A stretch of DNA of 64,000 nt from Candidatus Gastranaerophilales bacterium (GTDB taxonomy: Bacteria; Cyanobacteriota; Vampirovibrionia; Gastranaerophilales; Gastranaerophilaceae), in NCBI GenBank assembly GCA_944324915.1, contig CALUYD010000003.1, positions 124,971 through 188,970 of the forward strand. The letters are read 5' to 3'. Position numbers and translations under genes: made by a program. This document shows, piece by piece, positions 24,863 through 55,543 of the stretch; position 1 is the stretch's first letter; every line of letters begins with the position of its first letter. The notes under the pieces are model-generated. The model did no database searches. It was not told the origin of the DNA and saw only the letters and a list, made by a program, of their open reading frames with translations.

Positions 24863-26141
24863 TTTCGTTTTTATACATTTTTTCTTCTTTTGCAATTGCC
24901 GGATTTTCATTTGTTCCATATAAAACTTTTCTTAAAAATATGGTTAATTTAGGCTGAATTACGCCCATAATTCCTGCTGCAATTAATATGTTTGCAACAA
25001 CAGCAAAAGTTTTAAATATTTTTGATTGCTTTAAATTACCCATATTTTTTGCCATGTCTTCAAAGTTATCCAAAGCATTTTTTATAGCTTTTTCATCAAT
25101 TGGTTTTATTACGCTTAGTGCATTTTTATCTTTTGTAAGCGAAATCAAACCTTCATTTTGAAGCAATGTCATAACAGGATTTTTAACATCAATTTTAGAT
25201 AAAGTATCTATTATATTATTAGAATTTTTAAGCTCTTGAATTGATGGCTTAGCTTTTTTAATTAAATCATCCAGGTTATTTGCAAATAGATTTTTAGGGT
25301 CTAATTTTATAGGGGTTTTCATTATTTCGCCCAATTTTTCAAATCCTAATTGAATAGGTTTTGCTAATCCGTATATAAATATAATTTGACACAACTCCTT
25401 AAAAGCAACCTCAAATCTTTCTTCTTTTCTTGCTTCTTTTAATCTTGTTAAAGTTATAACACCATCTAATATCATAGTGTTTTTAATAGGATTATACATA
25501 AATTCGGATAATCCGCCTTTAAAAGAAATTTGATTATTATTTATATATTTATCAAACTTTTTATTTTCATTTACAGCATTTTCTATTGTTTTAGAATTAA
25601 AAGATAACTTATGCGCTATATTTTCTTTTTTAATTCTATCTGATGTGGTTTTTTGTTTGTATTTAATAATCTTACCTAAAGCAACAGCAGCAATAGTTGT
25701 TGCTATTACAAATTTTCCAATTGCAAACCCTTTATACATTTGAGCATTTGTAAATTTCTTTAAAACAGGGTTAAAATTATTCAAATTATCAAACAAGGTT
25801 TTTTCTTCACCTTGTGCGATTTTAGAAATAGTCTTAAAATTTTCTTTATTATCCAATAATCTTGGGTCAAATTTAGAATTTAATTTAAACAAAGGGTAAA
25901 CACTAAAATCAATAAGTTTTTTAATTGCAGGAATGGCAAAAAGCCAAATCGCACCTGTGCCGAATTCTTCTATCGCTTTTTCTCTGGCGTCATCTTTTCC
26001 GCCATTTTTTTTATATGTATAAACCGTTGCGCCATCGCCAATCCAATCTTTTATAACCATCGCAGCAAGCGAATCATCATTATTGGCGAGTCCTGATAGC
26101 AGTTTAATAGAATTTTTTGTTGCTAATGCTGAAATTTTCAT
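24849..26141 (-). CDS. Hypothetical membrane protein, lineage-specific family (paralogue of 39252-40256 and 40256-41380)
   Basis: SD AAGGAG. Hydrophobic segments GTGAIWLFAIPAI, FAIGKFVIATTIAAVALG, FAVVANILIAAGIMGVIQPKL. Shared motif AIxEFxTGxI and a C-terminal anchor ending ...PKL. Confidence 0.65.
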   Translation of the reverse strand: MKISALATKNSIKLLSGLANNDDSLAAMVIKDWIGDGATVYTYKKNGGKDDAREKAIEEFGTGAIWLFAIPAIKKLIDFSVYPLFKLNSKFDPRLLDNKENFKTISKIAQGEEKTLFDNLNNFNPVLKKFTNAQMYKGFAIGKFVIATTIAAVALGKIIKYKQKTTSDRIKKENIAHKLSFNSKTIENAVNENKKFDKYINNNQISFKGGLSEFMYNPIKNTMILDGVITLTRLKEARKEERFEVAFKELCQIIFIYGLAKPIQLGFEKLGEIMKTPIKLDPKNLFANNLDDLIKKAKPSIQELKNSNNIIDTLSKIDVKNPVMTLLQNEGLISLTKDKNALSVIKPIDEKAIKNALDNFEDMAKNMGNLKQSKIFKTFAVVANILIAAGIMGVIQPKLTIFLRKVLYGTNENPAIAKEEKMYKNEIKLQ

Positions 26142-28533: not shown

Positions 28534-29424
28534 ATGACATTAAGTCCTATCAACCAAAAATATATACAAACAACAAAAGCAAATAACGCTAATACCGCTT
28601 CTGTTAATGTTGCACCTAAAGTTAATGTAGGGCAACCACAAGATAGCGTTGAATTATCTACAAATAAAAAACAAGGTTTAATTGATAAAATTAAAGCTAA
28701 TAAAAAAATTCTTATTCCAACTGCAATAGGAATAGCTGCGCTAGCAGGCGGAGTAATTTATGGTATTAAAACAGGAAAAATAAGTTTTAAAGGTAATATT
28801 AAAGAAAGAGCTAACGAAATAATTGAAGAAGGCAATAAAATCAAACAAAGAGGTGCTGAATTAGTTGAAGAAGCGCAAAAACAATATGATGAAGTTTTAG
28901 AACTTATAAAAAAAGGTGAAAAAAATGGTAAAAATGGTTTTGAAGATTTTAGCGAAGGCTCAAAACTAATTAAATTCAGCGGTGATGAACTTGAAAAAAC
29001 AATAAGAGAATATGAGGGCGACAAACTTTTAAGAGAAGCTGATTTTGAACTTTTCGGACAAGATTATCGCATAACTACAATTAGCAAAAATATTGAAGAC
29101 CTAGAAGATGGAACAGAAAAAATAAAAGAATTATTTGCCTTTAAAAATGATAAAATTGAAGGATATTATAAAAATGCAACAATAAACAAAGATGATTCAG
29201 TACATTATGCAGAAGGATTTACCTTTAAAAATGATAAAATTAGACAATATTTTAAAAATATAACAATAAACAAAGATGGTTCAGGACATTTTGCAGAAGT
29301 ATTTGCCTTTAAAAATGATAAAATTGAAAGATATTATAAAAACTATAAAATAAATGCAAACCACAAAGAAAGTTGGGAGCAAAAATATATACGAAACGAA
29401 CAAGGTGAACTTGTAAAAGCATAA
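28534..29424 (+). CDS. Single-pass membrane protein with 28-aa tandem repeats (tandem paralogue 1)
   Basis: N-terminus MTLSPINQKYIQ; TM ILIPTAIGIAALAGGVIYGI; three FxFKNDKIxxYYKNxxINKDxSxHxAEx repeats with a loose MORN/YwqK-like feel. Confidence 0.65.
   Translation: MTLSPINQKYIQTTKANNANTASVNVAPKVNVGQPQDSVELSTNKKQGLIDKIKANKKILIPTAIGIAALAGGVIYGIKTGKISFKGNIKERANEIIEEGNKIKQRGAELVEEAQKQYDEVLELIKKGEKNGKNGFEDFSEGSKLIKFSGDELEKTIREYEGDKLLREADFELFGQDYRITTISKNIEDLEDGTEKIKELFAFKNDKIEGYYKNATINKDDSVHYAEGFTFKNDKIRQYFKNITINKDGSGHFAEVFAFKNDKIERYYKNYKINANHKESWEQKYIRNEQGELVKA
29134..29370 (+). repeat. In-frame 84-bp tandem repeat, about 2.8 copies
   Basis: Units start at 29134, 29218 and 29302 (tttgcctttaaaaatgataaaatt...). 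High nucleotide identity between units. Confidence 0.9.
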
Positions 29425-33513: not shown

Positions 33514-35355
33514 TTAAATATTAGTTGCTAAACTTGGAGCAATAATAATAAATTGACGAATTAATTCCTTATCCCATTGAGTGCCGGCACCCATTTTAAG
33601 GATTTCACATGCTTTATTAACAGATAATCCTTTTCTGTATGGTCTATCTGAAATTAAAGCATGATAAGCATCGGCAATAGCAACAATTCTTGCCGATAAT
33701 GGAATTTCATCACCTTTTAAACCGAATGGATAGCCTGTTCCATCAACATGTTCATGGTGAAATTTAACCATAGGGATTAAATCATGAAGTGATTTATTAG
33801 GCTCTAACACTTTATCAGCACCAATCGCAGGGTGTTGCTTCATAATTGCCCATTCATCATCGGATAGCATAGTAGGTTTTCTTAAAACATGCTCAGGAAT
33901 ACCGATTTTACCAATATCATGTAACAAAGCACCTAATTTTATACGCTCAACTTCATTTGCAGGTAAATTAATTGCTCTGGCTAATGCTTCAGAATATCTT
34001 GAAACAGCCGCAGAGTGACCTTTTGTATATGTATCTTTTGCATCAATTGTGTTCGCTAAAGATGAAACAACATCAAGTAAATGTTCATTTGATACAATAT
34101 TTTCATCGTGGAATTGATTAATCAATTCTTCTTCAATATCAACACCAATTGCAGCATGTTTTTTGGTTAATACCTGAGCAAAGCATTTAAGCGCTTCATC
34201 ATCCCAGAAATTATAATCCAAAGTAGAAACAATTTCCGATTGACCGGATTTATTTCTTTTACTTTTTGCAATAAACAGTGCTTGTTCTGCTAAAATAGTT
34301 AATTTTTCTTGTTTATTTGTGGAATTTGGACACATTGAAATACCGCAAGAGAACTTCAATTGACCCAAATCATCAAACATTGTACAAGCTAAATTGTATA
34401 AAAGAAATTCACACACATATTTTGCTTCATTTTCAGACGTATCAGGCATTATTATAGCTATTTCATCTCCGCCATATCTTCCTAATATATCAGTATTTCT
34501 AACATTTTTCTTAATTTTTGAAGCGACTTCTTTTATAACTTCATCACCTTTAGCATGACCTAATTCATTATTTATTTCAGCAATATTTGCAATATCAATA
34601 ATACAAAATGCTAAAGTTGAAGCAGAATTAATTGTTCTTGTTATTTCTCTTGCTAAGTCTTCTTGCAATTTTTTATGATTAGATAAACCTGTAAGAGAAT
34701 CAGTATCCGTATTTCTATCAACTAAATCTGCCAATTGTCTATTTTTATAGAATATTGCATAATAATTTGCAATTAATTTATAAAATTCAAATAACTGATT
34801 ATTATTATCTGAAAAAACAATCACACCAAGACATTCGCCAAAAACAACCAAAGGAATAACTGTTGTTGGAGTTTCAGCAAAATAATTCATTTTTAGATAG
34901 TTGCTATCAGTAGTATAAATTGCTTCTTTTGTTTTAAAAGCTCTAACAATTATGTTGTCATCATCAGATAACATAACTTTTGAGCTATAAGATAAACCTG
35001 TTTTTTCTATTAATTTAATATTAATATAATTTGAATTACCGTTAAAAATTCCGACAGCTAAAAAATCTAAATTTAATTTCAAACAAACTTGTTTATGAAT
35101 AGAATAAAAAAGTTGAATTGTATCTGTTTGATTTAATATAGATTCATTAATCGCATTTATCATTTCATGATAATTAACATCAGACATCTTTGTAAGATTT
35201 TTTGCCCAACCGCCATACAATCTATTAGAAGAAGTTCTTGTATTTAAAGGCATTATTCTTGATGTATCGATAGGATTTGAAATCTTATTATTTTGGTCTG
35301 TTTTAATATCTTTTAAACTATTATTATCTTTTATTTTATTATAGTCCACACACAA
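33514..35355 (-). CDS. Composite c-di-GMP protein: N-terminal sensor region + GGDEF + HD-GYP
   Basis: DSLTGLSNH...RNTDILGRYGGDEIAII (I-site RxxD plus a GGDEI variant); HD-GYP LLHDIGKIGIP...HHEHVDGTGYPFGL. Start is uncertain (TTG 35355 or GTG 35349). Confidence 0.85.
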   Translation of the reverse strand: MCVDYNKIKDNNSLKDIKTDQNNKISNPIDTSRIMPLNTRTSSNRLYGGWAKNLTKMSDVNYHEMINAINESILNQTDTIQLFYSIHKQVCLKLNLDFLAVGIFNGNSNYINIKLIEKTGLSYSSKVMLSDDDNIIVRAFKTKEAIYTTDSNYLKMNYFAETPTTVIPLVVFGECLGVIVFSDNNNQLFEFYKLIANYYAIFYKNRQLADLVDRNTDTDSLTGLSNHKKLQEDLAREITRTINSASTLAFCIIDIANIAEINNELGHAKGDEVIKEVASKIKKNVRNTDILGRYGGDEIAIIMPDTSENEAKYVCEFLLYNLACTMFDDLGQLKFSCGISMCPNSTNKQEKLTILAEQALFIAKSKRNKSGQSEIVSTLDYNFWDDEALKCFAQVLTKKHAAIGVDIEEELINQFHDENIVSNEHLLDVVSSLANTIDAKDTYTKGHSAAVSRYSEALARAINLPANEVERIKLGALLHDIGKIGIPEHVLRKPTMLSDDEWAIMKQHPAIGADKVLEPNKSLHDLIPMVKFHHEHVDGTGYPFGLKGDEIPLSARIVAIADAYHALISDRPYRKGLSVNKACEILKMGAGTQWDKELIRQFIIIAPSLATNI

Positions 35356-35809: not shown

Positions 35810-38029
35810 ATGACGTATCAAAAAATCTTTGAAGAAATTAAAGAGGAATTACACAAACAAAAAAGACAGCCTGATGATATTGAGCAAATTGAAGCTGCAT
35901 ATAATTGGGCTAAAAAATTACATGAAGGACAATTCAGGATTTCTCAAGAGCCTTATATTATTCATCCTCTTGAAGTAGCAAAAATTTTAGTAGATTTGAA
36001 ACTCGATAGAGATACAATTATTGCTGCTTTTTTGCATGATGTATTAGAAGATACCGATACAACACCTGAAGAAATGAAAGAAAAATTCGGTCAAGACGTT
36101 GTTAATCTCGTGCAAGGTGTTACAAAATTAAGCAAATATCAATTTAAATCAAAAGAAGAACGTCAAGCTGAAAACTTTAGAAGAATGCTTATTGCAATGG
36201 CTCAAGATATAAGGGTTGTTGTTCTTAAATTAGCAGATAGATTGCATAATATGAGAACACTATCTTATATGACGACAGCCAAACAGAAAAAAATTGCCCA
36301 AGAAACAATGGACATTTTTGCACCATTAGCAAATCGCTTGGGAATGGGTAAAATAAAAGCAGAACTTGAAGATTTATCTTTAAGATATTTAAATCCTGAA
36401 AAATATTATGAAATTGCAAAACTCGTTGCAGAAACAAAAGCAATGAGAGATTCAACCGTAAACGCTCTAATTGAAATTATTTCAAAAGAGCTTGAAAAAA
36501 ATCATATAAAAGCAAAAATTAAAGGTAGAGCAAAACACTATAATTCAATCTACAATAAAATGAAACGCCTAAACGTTACATTTGATCAGCTCTATGATAT
36601 AACGGCAGTAAGAGTTATAGTTGAAAGCGAAAAAGAATGTTATCAAGTTTTAGGTATAATTCACCAACTATTTAAGCCAATCCCCGGAAGATTTAAAGAT
36701 TACATTGCCATGCCTAAAGGCAATATGTACCGCTCATTACATACATCTGTAATAGGTTCAAAAAATAAACCTGTTGAAATTCAAATCAGAACAAAAGAAA
36801 TGCATGAAGTAGCGGAATATGGTATTGCCGCTCATTGGAGATATAAAGAATCAGGCTCAATTAAAGCATCAAACAAGCAAGACATGCAATTTTCTTGGAT
36901 GAGAAAAGTAATGGAGCTTGATAATGAATCAACAAATGCACAAGACTTTGTTGAAAGCGTTAAATTGGATATATTCAACAATCAAATTTTCGTATTCACT
37001 CCTAACGGAGATGTTTTTGATCTGCCTCAAAATTCAACTCCTGTTGATTTTGCATACAGAATTCATACTGAAGTCGGACACAAAACAGTTGGAGCTCTAA
37101 TAAACGGCAGAATTGCGCAACTTGATACAAAATTAAAAAACGGTGATATTGTTGAAATTTTAACATCAAAACAATACATGCCAAAAATCGATTGGCTCAA
37201 TTTTGTTGTTACAAAAAATGCAAGCTCTAAAATTCGCCAATGGTTCAAGAAATTCAATCGTGAAGATAACATTCAAATTGGAAAAACAAACCTTGAAATA
37301 GAACTCACAAAAGCATGCTTTGATGAATATAACAAAAACGGACTAATTGAAAAAGCTGCAAAAGAAATGAATTACAAAAACTCTGAAGACTTATTTGCAG
37401 CACTTGGCTACGGCGAAACCACAATTCATAAAGTAGTAAATGTTCTAAAAAAATATGAACCTCCAAAAACAAACGAAGAACTTGCAATATCTCAAACTCA
37501 AACCAAAAAAACAAAAAGTAAGAAGAATGACATTGTTGGTCTTGAAGGTTTATTATGGTCATTAGCAAAATGTTGTTCGCCAATCCCGGGAGAGCCTATA
37601 ATTGGTGTTATTACACGCTCTAAAGGGGTAAGTGTTCATAGACTAGATTGTAAATGCTTATATAATATAGAGCCTGAAAGAATGATTGATATTTCTTGGG
37701 CAGAAGGCACTACAAAAACATCATATTTAGCCCATATTAGAATTGAATGCCAAGATAGAGTAGGTATGTTAAGAGATATTCTATTAAAAACAGGTGATTT
37801 AGGAATAAATATAATATATTCCAATACTTATCTAAAAGGAAGAAAATTCGGCATAATTGACCTTGGAATTGAATTAGATAATATAGAAACACTCAAAAAA
37901 GTTATTTTAAATATTCAATCAATTCCTGATGTATGTTCTGTAAGAAGATTGCAACAAAAAGAAAATCTAAATCAACCAAAGCAAACTAAAAAGAAAAAAA
38001 TGAAGCCAAACCAAAAGGACAAAAAGTAA
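35810..38029 (+). CDS. rel: Bifunctional (p)ppGpp synthetase/hydrolase (Rel/SpoT)
   Basis: HD hydrolase HPLEVAKIL...FLHDVLEDT; synthetase RFKDYIAMPKGNMYRSLHT; TGS and ACT regions; 739 aa. Confidence 0.93.
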   Translation: MTYQKIFEEIKEELHKQKRQPDDIEQIEAAYNWAKKLHEGQFRISQEPYIIHPLEVAKILVDLKLDRDTIIAAFLHDVLEDTDTTPEEMKEKFGQDVVNLVQGVTKLSKYQFKSKEERQAENFRRMLIAMAQDIRVVVLKLADRLHNMRTLSYMTTAKQKKIAQETMDIFAPLANRLGMGKIKAELEDLSLRYLNPEKYYEIAKLVAETKAMRDSTVNALIEIISKELEKNHIKAKIKGRAKHYNSIYNKMKRLNVTFDQLYDITAVRVIVESEKECYQVLGIIHQLFKPIPGRFKDYIAMPKGNMYRSLHTSVIGSKNKPVEIQIRTKEMHEVAEYGIAAHWRYKESGSIKASNKQDMQFSWMRKVMELDNESTNAQDFVESVKLDIFNNQIFVFTPNGDVFDLPQNSTPVDFAYRIHTEVGHKTVGALINGRIAQLDTKLKNGDIVEILTSKQYMPKIDWLNFVVTKNASSKIRQWFKKFNREDNIQIGKTNLEIELTKACFDEYNKNGLIEKAAKEMNYKNSEDLFAALGYGETTIHKVVNVLKKYEPPKTNEELAISQTQTKKTKSKKNDIVGLEGLLWSLAKCCSPIPGEPIIGVITRSKGVSVHRLDCKCLYNIEPERMIDISWAEGTTKTSYLAHIRIECQDRVGMLRDILLKTGDLGINIIYSNTYLKGRKFGIIDLGIELDNIETLKKVILNIQSIPDVCSVRRLQQKENLNQPKQTKKKKMKPNQKDKK

Positions 38030-39251: not shown

Positions 39252-40256
39252 ATGAGATTAACTGCCGTAAGCAACGACACTGTAAAGCAAAATAGAGCAA
39301 ATAAAAATAACAACAACAAAATAAACAACAATATGCATTTTAAAGGATTTGCAGATTGCGCTGTTGTTATGTGGAATGTTATCGATAAAGGCGGAAGAGC
39401 GCTACAATTCACCGTTGAAGATATGCTTGGAACGAATTTTCCAAGAACATATAAAGGCGCAATGTCAGGCTACAAATACACAGGTAAAGTAAACATTCCG
39501 TCATTATTACAAGAAGCTATTAGAGAATTTTTAACAGGTCCGATTATGTCTGTTTCTCCTTTTGTAATTTTAGCAATAGCAACTGCACTTGGTGGAAAAT
39601 CCGCAAATACCCACGTTAAAAATATCGAAAATCTTTCATATTTAATGCAAAACATAAACATGGAAGATGCTAGTGATGCAAGTGCTTTTAAAAATAATTA
39701 CTTCAAAAAAATAATTACGGATATGTTAGAAAAAACACTTGATACAAAAGAAGTACAAGATGATGACATAAAAGAATTATTTGATGGAATCAAAAATTAC
39801 GATAATATTATTTCAACAACATCAAAAGAAACTAAAAAACGAAGCAAGCAACAAGCAAAAGAAGCACTTAATAGCTTACAAAATTCTTTTGAAAACATTA
39901 TTAAAAGAAGCAGAAGTACATTCAGCGGAACAGATTTTCAAACAGCAGTATTTTCGCTATCCGAAAACAAGACAGCAACTACAAACTTTGAAAATTATGT
40001 TCAATACGCCTCAGCTTTTGCTAATGATTACATAAAACAAAATAAAACCGAAGAAGGAATAAATTTAGCGCAAGAAACTATTCAAGCATTTAAGAAAAAT
40101 TGGATAGGTAAACGCATACTTACAATTATATCAATGATTGCATTAACAGGTGTCATTATGTCAATTATTCCAAAATTGTACACATTAGCATCAGGAAAGA
40201 AAAATCCTGACACCAAAGTATTTACAGATGTAGCAAAAGAAAAGGGGGTTAAATAA
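39252..40256 (+). CDS. Hypothetical membrane protein, lineage-specific family member
   Basis: SD GAGGAAAG. LQEAIREFLTGPIMSVSPFVILAIATAL and C-terminal anchor ILTIISMIALTGVIMSIIPKLYTL, comparable with 24849-26141. Confidence 0.65.
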   Translation: MRLTAVSNDTVKQNRANKNNNNKINNNMHFKGFADCAVVMWNVIDKGGRALQFTVEDMLGTNFPRTYKGAMSGYKYTGKVNIPSLLQEAIREFLTGPIMSVSPFVILAIATALGGKSANTHVKNIENLSYLMQNINMEDASDASAFKNNYFKKIITDMLEKTLDTKEVQDDDIKELFDGIKNYDNIISTTSKETKKRSKQQAKEALNSLQNSFENIIKRSRSTFSGTDFQTAVFSLSENKTATTNFENYVQYASAFANDYIKQNKTEEGINLAQETIQAFKKNWIGKRILTIISMIALTGVIMSIIPKLYTLASGKKNPDTKVFTDVAKEKGVK

Positions 40257-41380
40257 TGAACGTATCTAAAATAACCTCATCTTTAACACCAATAAAAAAT
40301 ACTCTTGGTAAAGGAGTAAATAAAGTTGCAGACAAAATAGGCAACTTTGTTGATAAAAGCGACATAGCAAAAAAAGCAGTAAATATATTTGAACCAAACG
40401 GCGGAGATAATTCATTTTTTGGTCTTGCAAGCATAATGGTTTTTGCTGTTTTAATTCCAAGGGTGATAACAGCTCTAAGAAGAAATCCTGAAGATAAGGA
40501 AGCTACAAAAGATGAAATTACAGGTATCTTATTTAGAGATGTAACCACAATTTTAACTATGCTTTTTGCTCTTAAAACAATGAACTCTGTTGTAAGTAAT
40601 ATTGGTACAAAAATGACAGGTATTCCAATGGTTAATAAACCATTTGAAAAATTGTTTAATGATAATATAAAAGGATTCACAGATAAAGCAAAAGATATTT
40701 TTGAACATCCGCTTGATAAAGCTAAAAAAATCGTTAAAAATATCGCCTTAGCGCTAAACCCAATAGGCGGCAGCGTATCATTAAGCGGTGATGAAATAAA
40801 CAGAAGATTTACTAATCTAAAAGACGTATCACAAGTTCAAAAACTTTTAGAAGATGTTCCAAATCATGGTGGAAACTCAGAAAAAGTATTCACTAAAATG
40901 AAAAATGGAATTATAAGCTCCATACAAGCAACTATAGAAAAAACAAAACAAGAAAATATGCCAATAAATAACAAATTCACTGAAGATGTTGAAGAAAACT
41001 TAAGAAGAAACGAAAGTGCTCTTAAATATTTTAAAAATCTAACTTATGAAAAATTTATGGGAATTGATACAACATCAATGTCAACTGATAAAAACCCTTC
41101 TTTTGATATAAACCATGTAATTAAAGAATTCTTTAAAGATGAAAAAAATCCTATCGCACTTAGCGCAAAACGAGTAAATGCTTGGTTAAGAACAACAGCG
41201 CTTGCAATTGAAGTATTCTTCCTTGGCTTTGGCTTACCAACATTGAACCAAAAAAGATTAGAAAAGAAATATCTAAGCGAAAAACCCGTAGGTGAAGAAC
41301 GCGGAAAAAATTTCACACCAAGCAATGATAGACAAGTAAAAGCTCAAGAAATAAAACTTTTCAGCAGTTTTATGAAATAA
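40256..41380 (+). CDS. Hypothetical membrane protein, lineage-specific family member, translationally coupled to the preceding gene
   Basis: TAATG overlap; SD AGGGGG. Hydrophobic segments FFGLASIMVFAVLIP and TALAIEVFFLGFGLPTL. Confidence 0.65.
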   Translation: MNVSKITSSLTPIKNTLGKGVNKVADKIGNFVDKSDIAKKAVNIFEPNGGDNSFFGLASIMVFAVLIPRVITALRRNPEDKEATKDEITGILFRDVTTILTMLFALKTMNSVVSNIGTKMTGIPMVNKPFEKLFNDNIKGFTDKAKDIFEHPLDKAKKIVKNIALALNPIGGSVSLSGDEINRRFTNLKDVSQVQKLLEDVPNHGGNSEKVFTKMKNGIISSIQATIEKTKQENMPINNKFTEDVEENLRRNESALKYFKNLTYEKFMGIDTTSMSTDKNPSFDINHVIKEFFKDEKNPIALSAKRVNAWLRTTALAIEVFFLGFGLPTLNQKRLEKKYLSEKPVGEERGKNFTPSNDRQVKAQEIKLFSSFMK

Positions 41381-49785: not shown

Positions 49786-50559
49786 CTATTTTCTAAAATT
49801 ATTTTTATGTTTAATGAATGCAAAAGCAATAGAAGCACATATTGCAAGATTTAGCGATTCAACATCATTATCCATTGCAATTGTTATTTTTTCATCGCTC
49901 AATTGATTAATTTCATCGCTTATTCCAAACGCTTCAGAACCAAAGGCAATTATAAAATTACCATTATAATCAATATCAAGCATATCTTTTTTAGAATTAA
50001 CAACCGTAGAAATTAATTTATGATTTTTTTTCAACTCTAAAATAAAAGATTTATCATTTGTTTTAATTATCGGTAATTTAAAAATATTTTGTGCGGTTGA
50101 TCTAATAACTTTTGTATTATATAAATCAACACAATCATTAAATAAAATTATACCGTCTATTGAAAAAGCTGTAGCAGAGCGAATTATAGTTCCGAGATTT
50201 CCGGCGTCTTTTACGCCGTCAATAAGCGCAATTTTTGATAGTTTTTTAAATATATTTTTATCAATTTCAGGCTCTTTTATAATTCCTATAATATCAGTAG
50301 GTGATTTTGTGGTTGAAATTTTTTTTAAAATCTCATCGGTTACAAAAACAACATTATTTGCTTGAATTTTATCTAAATAAACGTTATCTTTTTTTAAGAA
50401 AATATATTCAAAAACAATTTTATCAGAAATGAAACCCTCTATTGTTTGAATTCCGTCAACAAGAATCATCTTTTCTTGTTTTCGAAATTTTGGATTTTGA
50501 AGTTTATTGCAATATTTAACTAATTCATTTTGCAAACTTGTGATTTCAATTGTTTTCAT
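49786..50559 (-). CDS. TrmH/SpoU-family RNA 2'-O-methyltransferase
   Basis: DGVKDAGNLGTIIRSA...AFGSEAFGIS...ESLNLAICASIA. Confidence 0.82.
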   Translation of the reverse strand: MKTIEITSLQNELVKYCNKLQNPKFRKQEKMILVDGIQTIEGFISDKIVFEYIFLKKDNVYLDKIQANNVVFVTDEILKKISTTKSPTDIIGIIKEPEIDKNIFKKLSKIALIDGVKDAGNLGTIIRSATAFSIDGIILFNDCVDLYNTKVIRSTAQNIFKLPIIKTNDKSFILELKKNHKLISTVVNSKKDMLDIDYNGNFIIAFGSEAFGISDEINQLSDEKITIAMDNDVESLNLAICASIAFAFIKHKNNFRK

Positions 50560-52162
50560 AAGATTTATTCCAATTTTTTACAAAATCAGCTTCTTTTTTA
50601 CTTAATAGACTATAATCTATTAAAACCTCCTCAAAAGGAAATTTTGACATTGAAATTTTCTTAAAATTTAAATCACTATAAACGCAATTTTCAATTCTTA
50701 CTCCAAATTTGTTGCCGTCTTTATCTTCGCCATATAACCCCGGCTCAATAGAATGAATTTGATATGGCTTAATAATGTCTTTTGATTTCATGGACAATCG
50801 AGGGGGATTTTGATGAACAGATGTTGCAATACCATGACCTAAACCATGATCAAAATAAAAACCTTCTTTTTCAAATGGCTTTAAAAAATCCCTTGCTAAT
50901 AAATCTATTTTTTTTGCATTAATTTCATCAGATAAATAGCATTTTATGAATGCTTTAAGGACATTTGTGTATATTTTTTTATAAATATTTTTGGGATTTT
51001 TGCCAAAATAAAAAGTCCTTGTAATATCTGTTGCAAAGCCATTTTCGTAATATCCGCCACAATCTAAAAGAATAATATTTTCATCTTTTAAGATTTTATT
51101 TTTATCAGGGTTTGAATAATGAATTGATGCAGAATTTTCCCCAATAGCTAAAATTGTTTTAAAAGACTCGCATTTAGCAGCATTTTTTATAAGCTCATCT
51201 TCAAATATTTGATTAAGCTCAAATTCTGACAATCCCTTTTTAATTCTTTTTTTAAATTGAAAAATCGCATCATCGAGTCTTTTATAGGATTGTTTTATAT
51301 CTTCAATTTCAGCTAGTGTTCTAATTGATGCTAATGTTGAAAGATTTTTTATTTTATTTTCACTCGGTTTTTTTATTGAGACATAGTCTTTTAACGTAAT
51401 ATCATCTAAATCAAGAGAAATTTCACCCTCAAGCGACAATAAAAAACCGTCAAACTCTTTTAAATCAAGAACATTTAAACCCTCAATTTTAATTTTTTTA
51501 GATAATTTATCACAAAATAAAATGTAGTTATCACTTTTTAAATCTAAATATAAAACTGAGCGAAAATTAGATGAATACTTCATTTGATAACTTCTTAACC
51601 CTGTAAGATAAGATATTTCATCTAAATTAAAAATCACTGTTTTTGAAATATTTTTATTTGTTTTTTTCAATTTTTCAATCTTATCCAAAAAAGATATTTT
51701 ATCTATCTTATTTGAAATTTTAAAAATTTTTTCTTTTTTGTTGAAATCAAGATTTTTTGAATATTTTTTAGGAAGAGTATATTTCCTTAAATCAAAATAA
51801 TCACTATATTTCAAATATTCATTCAAAGAAATATCATCAACAACGTATAATACAGTGTTTTTCTTATAACTTTTTTTAAAAGCCTCAAAAAAAGTTTCGC
51901 CTAATTTCATTTTATAAATTTCAACATCATCATAAACTTGTTTATCAACAAGAAGATGATATCTTGTATCGACAAATATTTTAATTTTTCCGTTTTTATC
52001 AATTATTGCTTCGCCTTCAGTTCCTAAAAAACCTGTTAAAATAGCTAAAGGCGAGGAAGAATAATGACATTTAAAAAACGAATCACAAGATTTTAAAAGT
52101 AAAACCTCGTCATCTTTTAAAAGTTTTGTATAAAATTTTATTTGTTTTAATCTGTTTGTCAT
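50546..52162 (-). CDS. M24-family Xaa-Pro aminopeptidase
   Basis: LLDCGGYY..FATDITRTF...HGLGHGI...IEPGLY...RIEN. The ATG at 52162 is preferred, since the track start overlaps the upstream gene. Confidence 0.8.
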   Translation of the reverse strand: MTNRLKQIKFYTKLLKDDEVLLLKSCDSFFKCHYSSSPLAILTGFLGTEGEAIIDKNGKIKIFVDTRYHLLVDKQVYDDVEIYKMKLGETFFEAFKKSYKKNTVLYVVDDISLNEYLKYSDYFDLRKYTLPKKYSKNLDFNKKEKIFKISNKIDKISFLDKIEKLKKTNKNISKTVIFNLDEISYLTGLRSYQMKYSSNFRSVLYLDLKSDNYILFCDKLSKKIKIEGLNVLDLKEFDGFLLSLEGEISLDLDDITLKDYVSIKKPSENKIKNLSTLASIRTLAEIEDIKQSYKRLDDAIFQFKKRIKKGLSEFELNQIFEDELIKNAAKCESFKTILAIGENSASIHYSNPDKNKILKDENIILLDCGGYYENGFATDITRTFYFGKNPKNIYKKIYTNVLKAFIKCYLSDEINAKKIDLLARDFLKPFEKEGFYFDHGLGHGIATSVHQNPPRLSMKSKDIIKPYQIHSIEPGLYGEDKDGNKFGVRIENCVYSDLNFKKISMSKFPFEEVLIDYSLLSKKEADFVKNWNKSYENN

Positions 52163-52166
52163 TTTT

Positions 52167-52583
52167 TTAATCCGTAACCGTAACAATAATTTGCCTTTGA
52201 GAAGGTTTATTATCAAAATCTATCATAACAATTTGTTGATAAGAATCAAGCATAATTTTACCACCTATCACAGGCAATGTAATATTATTTCCTAATATAG
52301 AAGCTCTTAGATGAGAATAAGCGTTTCCGTCATGCCAAAAATTATCATGCTGATAAATTTTATTTATAGGAACAATCGATTCTAATATTTTAGCTAAATC
52401 ATAAGCTAAATTTGGCTCAGAATCCATTGTAATTAAAGATGTACAAGAAGAAAGAGAAAAAATATTTGCTATTGCGTTTTCTATATCAAACAATGACACT
52501 ATATTTTGAACTTTTGATGTAATATCAATGACATCATCAAATCCCTTTGAGGATATTAAAAATTTTTCAAATTTAACACTCAT
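52167..52583 (-). CDS. YjbQ/UPF0047 family protein (secondary thiamine-phosphate synthase-like)
   Basis: GNAYSHLRASILGNNITLPVIGGKIMLDSYQQIVMIDFD. Confidence 0.75.
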   Translation of the reverse strand: MSVKFEKFLISSKGFDDVIDITSKVQNIVSLFDIENAIANIFSLSSCTSLITMDSEPNLAYDLAKILESIVPINKIYQHDNFWHDGNAYSHLRASILGNNITLPVIGGKIMLDSYQQIVMIDFDNKPSQRQIIVTVTD

Positions 52584-52603: not shown

Positions 52604-54724
52604 TCAAGAAAACAAAGGAATTAACGACAATGCTAATATTACTAAAAATTTTAATAATGCATTCAATGAAGGGTTTATCAAACTTTTAAAAGAACAAAAT
52701 ATCTCTTCATTTAAGCTAATTGCATTGTATTCATCAGTATTTTTTATATAATTAAACTGATTTTCAAAAAACCTCTTTGCACTTTTTACCAATACACAAG
52801 AAGAATTTGTCATATAAACTAAACAAAATGAAGCAACAAGAACACCAAAAATATAACCTCCGAATGCTTCTTTTTGTAAATTAAAAACAATTAAAAATGA
52901 TATGATTATCACTAATATAGTGCTTATTATAACTTGAATTAATGAACTTATTGCTGATATATCAACACATTTTTCATAATCAGGGCGCATTTCAAATCTT
53001 AAAACTTGAGGAAATTTTTTAAGCTGTCTTTTTACCTCTAAAACAAGTCTGCGAGCAGTCTTTGAAACAATTCCCATAACAAAAGCACTATAAATAAAAG
53101 GTATTGTCACACCAATAAACAAGGATGATAAAACATAAGGATTTATTAAATCAATTTCTTCGATACATGATAAAACACAATACGCCATTATTGCAGATAC
53201 AACAGTAATCATTGTTGCAAAATTTATATAATTTTTACCAAGAGCAACAATATGAAAGCCAACACCATCAAGCGAATTAGATAAAACGTTTTCCTTTTCG
53301 CAGATGTCTTCTTCGTAAGTATCTAAAACTTTATAAACATTTTTTGTAGTAAAACCAAAAGAACAAATCCCAATCATTAAAGCGCTACATGAAAGCATGG
53401 CTAAAACCGCTAATGTTACACCGTAAAGCCCTGCTGATGGTTCATTTAAGCCTTGAGATAAAACAAAAGAAAAAATCAAAACTAAAGCAACTACAACGGC
53501 AGGCGAAAATATTGCACTAAAACTTTCTTTAATAATTTGTCTATACGTAGGCAAAAATCCTGATATTGCAGAATTTGAAACATCTACAACGGGTTTATAT
53601 TTTGAATACAATAAATTTGAATTTAAAAAACAAATAAAATATCCGCCAAAAGCGCCAATTACAATAGGATAGAATAAATATATTAAATCTGGAAGCCAAA
53701 ATCTAATTACAAAATATGAAATTATAACAAAAATCACATTTGCAAAAAATGCGCTTGAAAATAAGACCCTAAGAGGATTATTAATCTTATTGAAATTAAT
53801 AAACATTATAGAAATTATTGAGGCAAATATACCGCTTGCAAGTATGATAATAGGCAAAAAAGAACCCATCAACTGCAAAAATTCACCCCCCACAGTCATA
53901 GAAGCAATTAGTGCAAGTGATAAAGAAACAAATAAATCACAAGATAATGTATTAATTCCTAAAATACATTTTGAAACACCACTTAACAACAAAAGAGGAT
54001 TTCTTCTGTCATTTTTTTCATATTCTGCTACATGATTTCTTGAAACATCATCTGCAGATTCAACCGCTTGTCTTGATATTGCAGTAGATACGTTATTTAA
54101 TAACACAACAAAAGCGCAACCAAAAACAAATCCGTTTAAAACCTGATAATCCTTAATTATATGAAACAATATAACTAAAGGAATTATGCACAATCCAACC
54201 ATAATAAAAGAAATAACTACGGAAGAATTAAATATTTGCTTTAGCGCAAATGAATTAGATTCATTATAAAATTGAGATGAGCGTGTTGATATTTTTGTTG
54301 ATACTAAAACCGATAAAAATATTAAAAGAAAAGTAAATGCACTACCGCAAATAAAACATAAAACAAAATGATTTCCCATAAATTTAATCAAAAAACAGGA
54401 AATTAAAAATATAAATACTAAAGAAATTTTAAAAAGTCTTTTTATAAAAATAAAAGCCCCGTTTGAAAAATATTCAGTGATTTTTTCAAACATAGGATTT
54501 TTACTTTTATAAAAAGACATCTCAAGAGCTTTACAGGAAGCTAATAATATTGCTATTGCTCCTGCAAATAATCCAACCCATTTTGATTTTGTTGATGTAA
54601 TATCTACAAAATAAACAAAATATGATAAATACAGCGCTACAAATAAAAGTACCCAAAATATAGAATACCAGCCAAAAAGACGTTTATTAATTTTATCTCT
54701 ATCCATAAAATACCTAAAACTCAT
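52604..54724 (-). CDS. Membrane-integral pyrophosphatase (H+/Na+-PPase) homologue with substituted catalytic motifs
   Basis: 706 aa, many TM helices. Segment-by-segment resemblance to M-PPases (DRRNP...DLF.S, GLYGV..A.L.MLS, YKP, RPDYEKCVDIS, NPSLNALLKF), but the DNVGDNVGD, DNAGG, WDNAKK and GDTVGDPxKD positions are not acidic. Confidence 0.55.
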   Translation of the reverse strand: MSFRYFMDRDKINKRLFGWYSIFWVLLFVALYLSYFVYFVDITSTKSKWVGLFAGAIAILLASCKALEMSFYKSKNPMFEKITEYFSNGAFIFIKRLFKISLVFIFLISCFLIKFMGNHFVLCFICGSAFTFLLIFLSVLVSTKISTRSSQFYNESNSFALKQIFNSSVVISFIMVGLCIIPLVILFHIIKDYQVLNGFVFGCAFVVLLNNVSTAISRQAVESADDVSRNHVAEYEKNDRRNPLLLLSGVSKCILGINTLSCDLFVSLSLALIASMTVGGEFLQLMGSFLPIIILASGIFASIISIMFINFNKINNPLRVLFSSAFFANVIFVIISYFVIRFWLPDLIYLFYPIVIGAFGGYFICFLNSNLLYSKYKPVVDVSNSAISGFLPTYRQIIKESFSAIFSPAVVVALVLIFSFVLSQGLNEPSAGLYGVTLAVLAMLSCSALMIGICSFGFTTKNVYKVLDTYEEDICEKENVLSNSLDGVGFHIVALGKNYINFATMITVVSAIMAYCVLSCIEEIDLINPYVLSSLFIGVTIPFIYSAFVMGIVSKTARRLVLEVKRQLKKFPQVLRFEMRPDYEKCVDISAISSLIQVIISTILVIIISFLIVFNLQKEAFGGYIFGVLVASFCLVYMTNSSCVLVKSAKRFFENQFNYIKNTDEYNAISLNEEIFCSFKSLINPSLNALLKFLVILALSLIPLFS

Positions 54725-54757: not shown

Positions 54758-55543
54758 TTAATATACAAGCCACTTTTTAGCTATTAAATTAATCTTCTTT
54801 TCATCTAAAATAGTTGTAATTGCTGAATTTACGAGATTTAACAATTCTTTAGATTTCTCAGATTTTCTAAGCGCAACACCATAAAATTCTCTTGAGTAAA
54901 TACTGTTTGTTAAAACGAGTTTATCGTTTGTATAGCCCGCTAAAATACAATCATCACCCAAAACAGCGTCAACTTGATTATTAATCAATAAATTATATGC
55001 TTCAGTATAGCTTTTTGCACCAATTAAATTAGCATTAGGTGAAATTAATCTTGCAATTTTTTCTCCTGTTGTACCCATTATGATTGCCAATCTGCCTTGT
55101 TTATTAAAATATTGCAAACTCTTAATTTTAGATGTTTTTCTAACTAAGATTTTTTGATTGGCAACAAAATAAGGGATTGAAAAATCTAAAACTAATTTTC
55201 TTTTATTACTTATACTCATTGTTGCAACTAAAATATCAACATTTTTTGAATTAAGCATTGATATACGATTTTGAGGAGTTACAGGCACAAATTCAACATG
55301 AGAGGGAGAGGAGCTATCAAAAATTCTGCTTGCAATTTCATAAGCAATATCTACATCAAGCCCGACTAATTTCCCCTCTTTATTGTAATAACCAAATGGA
55401 GGCGAATCCACTTTTACGCCAACTTTTATATAGCCTCTATCTTTTATAAGTTGCAAGTCGTCAACTTCATCTTTTTTATTGGAACAACCAAAAAGAAAAA
55501 AAGATAGAACAAAAATTAACAATAAAACTATATACTTTTTCAT
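54758..55543 (-). CDS. Amino-acid ABC-type substrate-binding lipoprotein (family 3 SBP), orphan
   Basis: Lipobox LFGC at Cys20; IKVGVKVDSPPFGY...GLDVDIA...ATMSI. No adjacent permease or ATPase gene. Confidence 0.75.
   Translation of the reverse strand: MKKYIVLLLIFVLSFFLFGCSNKKDEVDDLQLIKDRGYIKVGVKVDSPPFGYYNKEGKLVGLDVDIAYEIASRIFDSSSPSHVEFVPVTPQNRISMLNSKNVDILVATMSISNKRKLVLDFSIPYFVANQKILVRKTSKIKSLQYFNKQGRLAIIMGTTGEKIARLISPNANLIGAKSYTEAYNLLINNQVDAVLGDDCILAGYTNDKLVLTNSIYSREFYGVALRKSEKSKELLNLVNSAITTILDEKKINLIAKKWLVY

What the first reader, a model, noticed from the sequence alone, without database searches (positions are those of the whole stretch)
52604..54724. Full-length membrane pyrophosphatase homologue with nearly all catalytic acidic motifs replaced
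The 706-aa polytopic protein tracks canonical H+/Na+-translocating PPases (motifs recalled from the Thermotoga and Vigna enzymes) along its whole length. EKNDRRNPLLLLSGVSKCILGINTLSCDLFVS corresponds to PEDDPRNPAxIADNVGDNVGDxAGxGADLxES. YSKYKP corresponds to YTSxxYKP. GLYGVTLAVLAMLS...CSFGFTTKNVYK corresponds to GLYGxAIAALGMLS...DSYGPIADNAGG. MRPDYEKCVDIS corresponds to AKPDYNRCIEIT. NSSCVLVKSAKRFFE corresponds to NSGGAWDNAKKYLE. NEEIFCSFKSLINPSLNALLKF corresponds to GDTVGDPLKDTVGPSLDILIK. The scaffold residues are kept, but the Asp/Lys residues that bind Mg-PPi are substituted. This looks like a pseudo-enzyme or a neofunctionalised transporter built on the M-PPase fold, which I am not aware of being described.
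Basis: partly seen in the sequence, partly recalled or inferred. Interest (0 to 1): 0.75.

Follow-up and report, generated by a model that had tools for sequence, protein, structure and literature searches.

The report
Catalytically dead membrane pyrophosphatase ortholog
A gut non-photosynthetic cyanobacterial relative (Gastranaerophilales) has kept its sodium-pumping membrane pyrophosphatase gene in place but replaced almost every residue needed to split pyrophosphate, and still preserves the protein under strong selection, so databases and published metabolic models that call it an energy-conserving pump are probably wrong and the protein must now do something else.

Summary
ORF 52604..54724(-) (706 aa; the conserved start is M7, giving 700 aa) matches PF03030 over its full length (264 bits). 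Its AlphaFold model (pLDDT 89.6) superposes on TmPPase and VrPPase at TM 0.80-0.84. At 20 hydrolytic-centre positions, every canonical homologue in the first search (77/77) keeps all 20; the query keeps 5 and its ~60 clade relatives keep 0-8. Net pocket charge goes from -8.9 to +1.7, and three Mg-binding Asp are now Lys.

New findings:
(1) The gene is not a spare paralog. It is the positional ortholog of fully intact Na+-PPases in related Melainabacteria, with the same YitT/SBP/PPase/YjbQ/M24/SpoU neighbourhood and the same extra N-terminal helix (TM0).
(2) Degeneration happened once (bootstrap 100/100) and was followed by roughly 4-fold rate acceleration.
(3) dN/dS is still 0.05-0.19.
(4) Some sister lineages have deleted the whole cytoplasmic hydrolytic domain (~590 aa) and still fold as a 17-helix core.
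(5) Conservation has shifted to the periplasmic face and TM0/TM1/TM7. A buried acid-base pair at the old ion gate is retained.

It is a genuine membrane pseudoenzyme whose function is unknown. My best guess is a PPi-independent role of the membrane core (passive cation conduction or binding, or a scaffold). I found no literature describing it.

The parts
52604..54724 (-). Degenerate M-PPase-like gene. The ORF from the first ATG is 706 aa; the probable real CDS is 52604..54706 (700 aa, starting MDRDKINKRL).
54578..54706 (-). Extra N-terminal helix TM0 (aa 7-40, N-terminus predicted cytoplasmic) and the TM0-TM1 loop with the near-invariant clade motif D41-x-x-S-T-K-S-K-W49. W24, D41 and W49 are inherited from intact TM0-bearing enzymes. 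S44, T45, S47 and K48 are invariant in the clade; the intact TM0a forms have Q-I-K-I-I there, though intact P0427 already has G-S-K at this spot.
54143..54169 (-). TM4-TM5 periplasmic turn LFHIIKDYQ (aa 186-194). H188, Y193 and Q/E194 are clade-specific invariants. Q194 aligns with VrPPase exit-channel residue E225.
54047..54100 (-). TM5 remnant LNNVSTAISRQAVESADD. R191->N211, K199->Q219, D202->E222; D206 is kept as D226.
53924..54019 (-). Loop 5-6 and TM6, EKNDRRNPLLLLSGVSKCILGINTLSCDLFVS. The lid motif DxRNP is kept. D218->N, D228->S, D232->K252, D236->G256. Gate D6.50 is kept (D263), E6.53->V266, and S6.54 is kept (S267).
53852..53872 (-). TM6-TM7 periplasmic turn LMGSFLP, invariant in the long and short forms and largely inherited from intact TM0-bearing enzymes.
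53330..53434 (-). TM11, AGLYG...CSFGFTTKNVYK. D458->C454 and D465->K461. The cytoplasmic half of this helix is deleted in the ~590-aa orthologs.
53231..53269 (-). TM12 start, DGVGFHIVALGKN. D488 is kept (D486), N492->F490, A12.46->V493, K12.50 is kept (K497), and N498 is a clade-specific replacement of an invariant Gly.
52955..52990 (-). Loop 13-14, MRPDYEKCVDIS, conserved in long forms and deleted in short forms.
52763..52807 (-). TM15 end, NSSCVLVKSAKRFFE. D660->K647, N661->S648; K663 is kept (K650); K664->R651.
52646..52711 (-). TM16, NEEIFCSFKSLINPSLNALLKF. D688->E673, D692->C677, K695 is kept (K680), D696->S681. Gate residues N16.46 (N688) and K16.50 (K692) are kept.
54758..55543 (-). Upstream neighbour 33 nt away: an orphan SBP_bac_3 lipoprotein (polar amino-acid-binding type). 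The adjacency is also present next to the intact enzyme P0427, so it does not mark a new function.
52167..52583 (-). Downstream neighbour 20 nt away: a YjbQ/UPF0047 family protein. Syntenic with both degenerate and intact PPase genes.
49786..52216 (-). Peptidase M24 (Creatinase_N type Xaa-Pro peptidase) followed by a SpoU/RlmB-like methyltransferase. These syntenic markers establish positional orthology with intact hppA loci.

Best explanation
SHOWN. This is the organism's own Na+-translocating membrane pyrophosphatase gene (hppA, K+-dependent Na+-PPase lineage, carrying an extra N-terminal helix TM0). In one sub-lineage of gut Gastranaerophilales it lost the Mg/PPi hydrolytic centre in situ. 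It is kept as an intact, confidently folding 17-helix membrane protein under purifying selection. It therefore cannot be a Mg-dependent PPi-driven pump and is a true polytopic pseudoenzyme.

INFERRED. The selected function is independent of PPi. It resides mainly in the membrane core and periplasmic face, because sister lineages have deleted the entire cytoplasmic hydrolytic domain yet remain conserved.

MOST LIKELY MECHANISM (about 0.3 on its own). A 'broken pump': the old ion pathway is retained. That pathway comprises a buried acidic residue on TM6 paired with Lys/Arg at 16.50, a hydrophobic gate weakened at the L555 position, and newly fixed polar residues at the exit-channel mouth (H188, Y193, Q/E194, S44, T45, S47, K48, W343). 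I propose it serves passive or periplasm-controlled Na+/H+ binding or conduction. A pure scaffold or partner-binding role is about equally likely. In the long form found in this window, the old pocket has been neutralised by Lys/Leu substitutions and is still constrained, probably to keep the cytoplasmic domain folded without metal and substrate.
For: - Homology and fold.
- Loss of 15/20 hydrolytic-centre residues against 20/20 in 77+56 intact homologues.
- Pocket net charge -8.9 -> +1.7.
- All NCBIfam Na+/H+-PPase equivalog scores far below cutoff (best 314 vs 546).
- Positional orthology with intact enzymes: H_PPase/YjbQ/M24/SpoU in L036-L039 and YitT/SBP/H_PPase/YjbQ in L040, with neighbour proteins 43-54% identical to the window's.
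- Single origin nested among intact TM0-bearing forms, bootstrap 100/100.
- Rate shift: the intact pair is 78% identical against neighbours at 69-70%; the degenerate clade is 33% against 55-82%. Kimura distance to Firmicutes enzymes is 2.3-3.2 against 0.5-0.6.
- Purifying selection: dN/dS 0.045-0.19 in 15 pairs, including an unsaturated pair with dS 0.107 and omega 0.045. All three topological regions give omega 0.04-0.25.
- About 590-aa orthologs in the same locus lack loop 9-10, the TM11/12 and TM15/16 cytoplasmic extensions and loop 13-14. They still model as a 17-helix bundle (pLDDT 85.8) matching TmPPase at TMq 0.75-0.79.
- Inverted conservation gradient: periplasmic loops 0.70 vs cytoplasmic extensions 0.59 in the clade, against 0.49 vs 0.82 in canonical enzymes.
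- A basic residue at 16.50 is kept in the great majority of long forms (46/51; 41/44) and in 6/6 short forms. The acidic partner is at 6.50 in the long forms and at 6.53 in the short forms.
- L555 -> A/G/S/T, and the exit-channel E225 position equals the clade-specific Q/E194.
Against: - No assay or coordinates were available. I could not verify that the clade-specific residues cluster around the exit channel; the claim rests on helix topology.
- Many conserved periplasmic motifs (KD, LxGxFLP, DIxNP, W24, D41, W49) are already present in the intact TM0-bearing enzymes, so they may be purely structural.
- A buried ion pair can be evolutionarily entrenched without being functional.
- The coupling Glu is missing in the long forms, and two of the four hydrophobic-gate positions stay bulky, which argues against an open pore.
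- At short evolutionary distances the cytoplasmic region is as constrained as the rest, so in the long form the old pocket may have its own role.
- Whether a second, canonical PPase exists elsewhere in these genomes is unknown.
- The NJ tree is crude and long-branch effects are possible.
Confidence: 0.55

Rival explanations
1. Regulatory pseudo-subunit. The dead protein heterodimerises with a canonical M-PPase encoded elsewhere in the genome and modulates or antagonises it, as many pseudoenzymes do with their active paralogs.
For: - M-PPases are obligate dimers with inter-subunit communication through TM10/13/15 (PMC5150537; PMC10897367 listed).
- TM13 is among the better conserved helices in the clade (0.67).
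- The truncated plant H+-PPase ZmVPP5 was proposed to act as a VPP antagonist (PMC5071666).
Against: - The gene is the positional ortholog of the intact enzyme, not a duplicate.
- No second M-PPase gene occurs in the 64-kb window or in any of about 40 fetched loci.
- Intact and degenerate forms were never seen together.
- Whole genomes could not be inspected, so the idea is not excluded.
Confidence: 0.12
2. Cytoplasmic ligand sensor. In the long form, the former Mg-PPi pocket is now lined by Lys/Arg (K252, K461, K647, K650, R651, K680, R241). It binds an anion (PPi, Pi, a nucleotide or another phosphometabolite) without metal and signals or gates through the membrane core.
For: - K252 and K647 are basic in about 80-85% of long forms.
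- Three of the four PPi-contacting Lys are kept.
- The lid motif DxRNP is 90-100% conserved.
- Pocket charge is +1.7.
- Cytoplasmic-region omega is 0.04-0.18.
Against: - Orthologs that deleted this whole domain persist through deep divergence in the same locus, so it cannot be the family's core function.
- Basic and acidic residues nearly balance (5.8 vs 4.1), and LLLL replaces AVIA. This looks more like cavity filling and salt-bridge stapling than an open binding site.
Confidence: 0.13
3. Substrate-binding-protein-dependent secondary transporter. The adjacent orphan SBP_bac_3 lipoprotein delivers a solute to the remodelled M-PPase scaffold.
For: - The SBP gene lies 28-58 nt upstream on the same strand in all long-form loci examined, with no ABC permease or ATPase nearby.
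- Conservation has shifted to the periplasmic face.
Against: - The same YitT/SBP/PPase/YjbQ arrangement flanks a fully intact Na+-PPase (L040), so the adjacency predates degeneration.
- Other intact and group-B loci have no SBP upstream: HSP20 in L036-L038, other unrelated genes in L039 and L034.
- In the short-form lineage the SBP is frameshifted at the same codon in two independent assemblies while the PPase-like gene persists.
Confidence: 0.04
4. Decaying relic. The gene is a pseudogene in slow motion with no function, kept only by chance or by operon constraints.
For: - Strong rate acceleration after catalytic loss.
- Progressive loss of segments in some lineages.
- A co-located SBP frameshift.
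Against: - dN/dS is 0.045-0.19.
- Uninterrupted ORFs of constant length occur in more than 60 clusters down to about 30% identity.
- There are invariant clade-specific motifs.
- Both forms give confident AlphaFold models.
Confidence: 0.04
5. Still a PPi-hydrolysing pump that uses a different constellation of residues or a different metal stoichiometry.
For: - D226, D239, D486, E222, E673, K650 and K680 remain.
- The fold and the lid loop are intact.
Against: - Both nucleophile-activating Asp (D236, D696) and at least 9 of 12 Mg-ligand acids are gone in the query.
- R191, K199 and N492 are gone.
- The substituting residues vary between orthologs.
- The pocket is net positive.
- Short orthologs lack the domain altogether.
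Confidence: 0.02

Closest known systems
K+-dependent Na+-translocating membrane pyrophosphatase (Thermotoga maritima TmPPase, PDB 4av3/5lzq/8b21; Pfam PF03030; NCBIfam NF001960)
   Same: - Homologous over the whole length.
- Same 16-helix fold (TM-score 0.81-0.84).
- Lid motif DxRNP.
- K12.50.
- Gate residues D6.50, S6.54, N16.46 and K16.50.
   Different: - 15 of 20 hydrolytic-centre residues are replaced; three Asp became Lys.
- The coupling Glu 6.53 is lost.
- The K+-site Ala 12.46 is Val.
- There is an extra N-terminal helix.
- Scores fall far below every equivalog cutoff.
- The conservation gradient is inverted.
Intact TM0-bearing Na+-PPases of related Melainabacteria (P0263, P0264, P0414, P0427 and about 50 further clusters found here)
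   Same: - Same genomic slot (YitT/SBP/PPase/YjbQ/M24/SpoU).
- Same extra N-terminal helix, with W24, D41 and W49.
- Same periplasmic turns KD, LxGxFLP and DIxNP.
- Monophyletic with the degenerate clade (100/100).
   Different: - They keep 20/20 catalytic residues and a DESGNK gate.
- They are about 58-60% identical to Firmicutes Na+-PPases and evolve more slowly than their neighbours.
- The window protein is 25-29% identical to any of them.
ZmVPP5, a truncated maize vacuolar H+-PPase (PMC5071666)
   Same: A non-catalytic derivative of an M-PPase that is expressed and has a phenotype. It is the only precedent I found for a non-pumping member of the family.
   Different: ZmVPP5 is a recent partial gene duplicate. 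It is highly similar to its active paralog, lacks large parts of the fold, and was proposed to antagonise the full-length pump. The protein here is full length, old and diverse, replaces the active gene rather than accompanying it, and has lost catalysis by substitution.
Polytopic membrane pseudoenzymes such as iRhoms and Derlins (inactive rhomboids); general pseudoenzyme concept (PMC5106787, PMC10211241; the iRhom/Derlin comparison is from my own knowledge)
   Same: A multi-pass membrane enzyme fold retained under selection after loss of catalytic residues, with added N-terminal elements and new conserved surfaces.
   Different: Unrelated fold and ancestral chemistry. iRhoms and Derlins have known partner-binding and membrane-remodelling roles; no partner is known here.
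CFTR as a 'broken pump' channel within the ABC transporter family (own knowledge; analogy only)
   Same: Conceptual model: a primary active transporter scaffold whose translocation pathway is reused without stoichiometric energy coupling.
   Different: CFTR keeps its ATP-binding domains for gating. Here the energy-coupling site is destroyed or deleted, and conduction has not been shown.

Membership tests
Membrane pyrophosphatase superfamily (Pfam PF03030 H_PPase), membership by homology and fold | Significant full-length match to the PF03030 profile | tested here: met
   264.4 bits vs gathering 29.7, E=3.1e-78, profile positions 2-643 of 645
Membrane pyrophosphatase superfamily (Pfam PF03030 H_PPase), membership by homology and fold | 16-TM two-ring helical fold as in solved M-PPases | tested here: met
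   AlphaFold2 pLDDT 89.6, pTM 0.91. Foldseek TM-scores are 0.75-0.84 for all 36 M-PPase chains, and the next hit has TM 0.15. There is one additional N-terminal helix.
Functional M-PPase (EC 7.1.3.1/7.1.3.2: PPi-energised H+/Na+ pump) | Hydrolytic centre: conserved Asp/Lys/Asn/Arg set binding Mg2+, PPi and the nucleophilic water (PMC5150537) | tested here: not met
   5 of 20 positions kept, against 20/20 in 77+56 intact homologues. D236 and D696 (nucleophile) are lost. Net charge is +1 in the query against -9.
Functional M-PPase (EC 7.1.3.1/7.1.3.2: PPi-energised H+/Na+ pump) | Ion gate D6.50, S6.54, D/N16.46, K16.50 plus the semi-conserved coupling Glu at 6.53 or 6.57 | tested here: inconclusive
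   D263, S267, N688 and K692 are present, but the Glu is V266/L270 in the query and absent in most long forms.
Functional M-PPase (EC 7.1.3.1/7.1.3.2: PPi-energised H+/Na+ pump) | Score above the NCBIfam equivalog cutoffs for Na+- or H+-translocating PPase | tested here: not met
   The best is NF001960 at 314 bits vs cutoff 546; TIGR01104 is 198 vs 652; all 12 models are below cutoff.
Functional M-PPase (EC 7.1.3.1/7.1.3.2: PPi-energised H+/Na+ pump) | K+-dependence signature Ala at 12.46 (Lys in K+-independent enzymes) | tested here: not met
   V493 in the query; V/I in most of the clade; Ala in 77/77 canonical hits.
Functional M-PPase (EC 7.1.3.1/7.1.3.2: PPi-energised H+/Na+ pump) | PPi hydrolysis coupled to cation transport; homodimeric assembly | not testable with these tools
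   Needs expression, vesicle assays and structure or oligomer analysis.
Pseudoenzyme (homologue of an enzyme that lacks catalytic residues yet is retained; PMC5106787, PMC10211241) | Clear homology to an enzyme family with loss of residues essential for catalysis | tested here: met
Pseudoenzyme (homologue of an enzyme that lacks catalytic residues yet is retained; PMC5106787, PMC10211241) | Retention under purifying selection, i.e. not a pseudogene | tested here: met
   dN/dS 0.045-0.19. Intact ORFs in 23 GTDB species representatives and more than 60 protein clusters.
Pseudoenzyme (homologue of an enzyme that lacks catalytic residues yet is retained; PMC5106787, PMC10211241) | Demonstrated absence of catalytic activity and a defined non-catalytic function | not testable with these tools
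   No biochemical data exist. No paper was found in five literature searches.

The most novel reading that the evidence does not exclude
The M-PPase scaffold has been converted in gut Gastranaerophilales into a PPi-independent membrane device. One possibility is a passive or periplasm-gated Na+/H+ channel or uniporter. Another is a periplasm-facing receptor built around the old exit channel plus the new TM0 loop. Its minimal ~590-aa version would be a natural 'motor-less' M-PPase core. That would make it the first pseudo-pump of this superfamily and a natural experiment separating ion translocation from PPi hydrolysis.
Probability: 0.3. Interest if true: 0.85.

Novelty: new variant of a known kind. 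Interest (0 to 1): 0.66.

Why it matters
1. M-PPases are regarded as uniformly catalytic. The 20 core residues were invariant in all 133 intact homologues I tabulated. A diverse, selected clade that has lost them, and in places the whole hydrolytic domain, is unexpected. It offers natural minimal constructs for a long-standing question in the field: how ion gating relates to hydrolysis, and what the membrane core does on its own.

2. Annotation and physiology. NCBI labels these proteins 'sodium/proton-translocating pyrophosphatase'. The founding Melainabacteria paper lists hppA among four ways these fermenters energise their membrane (PMC3787301). For the lineages carrying this clade that inference is probably wrong, which changes their predicted energy budget. 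It also fits organisms that spend PPi in glycolysis through PPi-PFK.

3. It is a clean, datable case of an essential-looking pump turning into a pseudoenzyme in situ. The intact, intermediate (group B), fully degenerate and domain-deleted stages all exist today.

Tried and rejected
- Rfam scan of the whole window: no hits.
- Promoter and terminator scans around the cluster: 58 promoter-like sites vs 55.8 expected and 0 terminators, so uninformative.
- PADLOC defence library: nothing meaningful.
- Context of P0044, the canonical hit closest to the query, hoping it was the lineage's own active copy: it sits among archaeal-type genes (Nre, NucS) and is irrelevant.
- Supplementary tables of PMC3787301: they list hppA only as a generic KEGG entry with no per-genome detail.
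- Second M-PPase copy: tblastn of two canonical enzymes against the window and all loci found only the one gene per locus. Pfam annotation of 20 further window ORFs found no soluble PPase, PPi-PFK or PPDK.
- SBP-coupled transporter idea: considered because of the orphan SBP directly upstream, and rejected after finding the same adjacency beside an intact enzyme and an SBP frameshift in the short-form lineage.
- 'New periplasmic active site': weakened when most periplasmic motifs proved to be inherited from intact TM0 enzymes.
- 'Vestigial cytoplasmic domain' in the long form: weakened by region-specific omega of 0.04-0.18.
- Model coordinates are not exposed by the tools, so the spatial clustering of clade-specific residues could not be computed.
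Full report
**Observation.** The window is AT-rich (about 30% GC). It carries a 706-codon ORF at 52604..54724 on the minus strand. All orthologs start MDRxKIxKRL, so the true start is almost certainly Met7, giving CDS 52604..54706 and 700 aa. A 100% identical 700-aa protein (P0001) is in the public collection. The protein matches Pfam PF03030 end to end (264 bits, E=3e-78, profile 2-643/645). It matches the sequences of solved M-PPases (TmPPase E=2e-37, VrPPase E=1e-32). All twelve NCBIfam Na+/H+-PPase equivalog models hit, but far below their cutoffs (best 314 vs 546 bits).

**Catalytic residues.** I reconstructed the TmPPase and VrPPase sequences from the printed alignments and anchored their numbering: 22/22 recalled TmPPase residues fit at an offset of +9, and all the recalled VrPPase residues fit at an offset of 0. 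I then aligned them with the query and 120 database hits. At 20 hydrolytic-centre positions all 77 canonical hits keep 20/20. The query keeps 5 and the 43 clade members keep 1-8, with no intermediates in that set. A second alignment gave the same result. Three Mg-ligand aspartates are lysines in most of the clade (D232->K252, D465->K461, D660->K647). The net charge of the 20 positions moves from -8.9 (sd 0.3) to +1.7 (sd 1.3). The roles of these residues, the cytoplasmic location of the hydrolytic centre, the inner ring TM5/6/11/12/15/16 and the gate residues are as described in PMC5150537. Gate residues D6.50, S6.54, N16.46 and K16.50 are retained, but the coupling Glu (6.53/6.57) is Val/Leu. 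An AlphaFold2 model built on the clade alignment is confident (pLDDT 89.6, pTM 0.91). It superposes on all 36 M-PPase chains at TM 0.75-0.84, and the next hit is at 0.15. The model has one extra helix (residues 2-38) before canonical TM1. With a basic N-terminus, this gives a 17-TM, N-in topology.

**Who has it.** The clade comprises about 43 clusters at 90% identity in the first search (33-100% identical to the query), then a sharp drop to canonical enzymes at 27% or less. A scan of one genome per GTDB species found 23 loci. All are in gut MAGs labelled Candidatus Gastranaerophilales, Melainabacteria or 'Cyanobacteria bacterium SIG27', from goat, buffalo, roe deer, rabbit and human-type samples. 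An exhaustive profile search of 1.84 billion representatives added two things. One is a ~590-aa group with the same N-terminus. The other is a 'group B' with a related N-terminus and 0-7 of the 20 residues.

**Origin: an ortholog, not a paralog.** Searching with a group-B member uncovered P0263, P0264 and P0265, which keep 20/20 residues and a DESGNK gate yet carry the extra N-terminal helix. Fifty-six relatives of P0263 are all intact. These intact genes sit in the same genomic slot as the window gene. In L036-L039 the order is H_PPase, then YjbQ in L036-L038, then peptidase M24, then SpoU methylase and a small ORF where the contig extends that far. In L040 the order is YitT(-), SBP_bac_3, H_PPase, YjbQ. 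The window and all clade loci read abhydrolase / YitT(-) / SBP / PPase-like / YjbQ / M24 / SpoU. Flanking proteins are 43-54% identical between the window and the intact loci, while the PPase is 28-29% identical. A neighbour-joining tree puts all TM0-bearing forms together (100/100). It gives the degenerate forms a single origin (100/100) and groups them with one intact subgroup (100/100). The short forms nest inside the long forms. The window gene is therefore the lineage's own hppA, which lost catalysis where it stood.

**Selection.** Between two intact loci the PPase is more conserved than its neighbours (78% vs 69-70%). In the degenerate clade it is far less conserved (33% vs 55-82%). Kimura distances to Firmicutes Na+-PPases are 0.53-0.61 for intact TM0 forms, 1.66 for group B, 2.29 for long forms and 3.22 for short forms. 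Despite this, Nei-Gojobori dN/dS over 15 pairs is 0.045-0.19, including an unsaturated pair with dS 0.107 and omega 0.045. This is a protein under purifying selection and not a pseudogene.

**Where the constraint now lies.** I binned residues by distance from the periplasmic end of each modelled helix. Canonical enzymes rise from 0.49 (periplasmic loops) to 0.82 (cytoplasmic extensions). The clade falls from 0.70 to 0.59. Its best conserved helices are TM1, TM7 and TM0 rather than TM5/6/11/12/15/16. The ~590-aa orthologs occupy the same locus. They have deleted loop 9-10, the cytoplasmic halves of TM11/12 and TM15/16, and loop 13-14, which together make up the whole hydrolytic centre. They keep TSTKSKW, HxxKDY[QE], LMGxFLP and DIxNP. 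They still model confidently as a 17-helix bundle (pLDDT 85.8) resembling TmPPase (TMq 0.75-0.79).

Two caveats temper a simple 'new periplasmic site, vestigial cytoplasmic domain' story:
- Most periplasmic motifs (W24, D41, W49, K191, D192, LxGxFLP, DIxNP) are already present in the intact TM0-bearing enzymes. Only S44, T45, S47, K48, H188, Y193, Q/E194, W343 and N498 are clade-specific in both long and short forms when compared with the TM0a intact enzymes, and intact P0427 already has Ser-Lys at the 47/48 spot.
- Among close relatives the cytoplasmic region is as constrained as the rest (omega 0.04-0.18). Long-form-specific residues there (LLLL244-247, K252, K647, E665, Y470, E471) are well conserved.

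**Ion pathway.** A basic residue at 16.50 is kept in the great majority of long forms (46/51) and in 6/6 short forms. Its acidic partner sits at 6.50 in long forms and at 6.53 in short forms. Of the VrPPase hydrophobic-gate positions, L232 and V746 stay bulky. L555 is invariant Leu in 64 intact sequences but becomes Ala/Val/Gly (long) or Ser/Thr/Cys (short). The clade-specific Q/E194 aligns with exit-channel residue E225. The identity of those gate and exit residues is from my own recollection of the VrPPase literature; it is consistent with the L555, E225, T228 and E301 mutant entries listed.

**Neighbours.** The orphan SBP_bac_3 lipoprotein directly upstream initially suggested an SBP-dependent transporter. 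Three results argue against this:
- The same adjacency flanks an intact pump.
- Other intact and group-B loci lack it.
- In the short-form lineage the SBP is frameshifted at the same codon in two independent assemblies.
YjbQ, the M24 peptidase and the SpoU methylase are syntenic housekeeping genes. No second M-PPase occurs in the window or in any locus. No soluble PPase, PPi-PFK or PPDK was found among 20 further window ORFs.

**Interpretation.**
- Shown: a catalytically dead, structurally intact, selected, in-situ descendant of a Na+-PPase.
- Inferred: its function does not need PPi, nor (family-wide) the cytoplasmic domain.
- Most likely mechanism: the membrane core is used without a motor. 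Either the old gate and exit channel bind or conduct Na+/H+ passively (about 0.3), or the protein serves as a scaffold (similar likelihood).
- In the long form the old pocket appears neutralised and filled (Lys for Mg2+, Leu for Ala), probably to stay folded without metal and substrate.
- Rivals (regulatory heterodimer partner, cytoplasmic anion sensor, SBP-dependent transporter, decaying relic, cryptic activity) are scored in the report sections.

**Literature and novelty.** Five full-text searches found no paper on inactive or pseudo M-PPases. A 2024 review of microbial PPases does not mention any. The nearest precedent is the truncated maize paralog ZmVPP5, a putative antagonist. The founding Melainabacteria paper counts membrane H+-PPase (hppA) among four routes to a membrane potential, and NCBI names these proteins 'sodium/proton-translocating pyrophosphatase'. 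I rate this a new variant of a known kind: the first pseudoenzyme lineage of the M-PPase superfamily that I could find. The intact, intermediate, dead and domain-deleted stages are all still sampled in nature.

Noticed in passing
L032:1567-3348 and L033:630-2411 (proteins P0130, P0136, P0141, P0144, P0145, P0147): Orthologs of about 590 aa in the same locus have deleted the entire cytoplasmic hydrolytic domain but keep TM0 and the periplasmic motifs. All six have Glu at 6.53 and Arg/Lys at 16.50. They look like natural 'motor-less' M-PPase cores.
   Followed up: yes
L032:776-1557 and L033:1-620: In the short-form lineage the upstream SBP_bac_3 gene carries a frameshift at the same codon (about 160/161) in two independent assemblies. 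This is either a real pseudogene or a programmed frameshift.
   Followed up: partly
Proteins P0153, P0167, P0168, P0169, P0197, P0206, P0223, P0236, P0246, P0248, P0251, P0253, P0260, P0261 (re-aligned): These M-PPase homologues are scattered outside this lineage. They have no extra N-terminal helix, keep only 3-11 of the 20 catalytic residues, and mostly keep a DESGNK-type gate. They branch among canonical enzymes, so catalytic degeneration may have occurred several times independently. Their hosts and contexts were not examined.
   Followed up: partly
L039:8001-10274 (P0264) and P0265, P0416, P0417, P0419-P0421: Some intact TM0-bearing enzymes are about 757 aa, with a still longer N-terminal extension that looks like a further pair of hydrophobic helices repeating the TM0 motif (…YLWMGG… then …FHLTFWGFF…).
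   Followed up: no
Proteins P0139, P0150, P0174, P0194, P0209, P0227 and others: Otherwise intact M-PPases have Gln or Lys instead of Arg at the TmPPase R191 position, coupled to distinct gate signatures (DESDHK, DDSANA/C). These are presumably established functional subfamilies, but they show R191 is not universally invariant.
   Followed up: no
window 50546-52216 (-): The mechanical ORF for the M24 peptidase starts at a TTG and overlaps the YjbQ gene by 50 nt. Orthologs are 533-540 aa, so the real start is probably the internal Met of MTNRLKQ (about 538 aa).
   Followed up: partly
window 24849-26141 (-), 28534-29424 (+), 39252-40256 (+), 40256-41380 (+): Four sizeable ORFs (430, 296, 334 and 374 aa) have no Pfam match at E<=1e-5. 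The last two are adjacent and also appear as unannotated genes next to RibF/RelA in a related locus (L006).
   Followed up: no
window 33514-35355 (-): A GGDEF plus HD-GYP-type (HD_5) protein lies next to RelA/SpoT (35810-38029). This points to c-di-GMP and (p)ppGpp signalling genes in this reduced gut lineage.
   Followed up: no
window 1-64000: No Rfam family reached its gathering score anywhere in the 64 kb: no tRNA, riboswitch or other known RNA.
   Followed up: no
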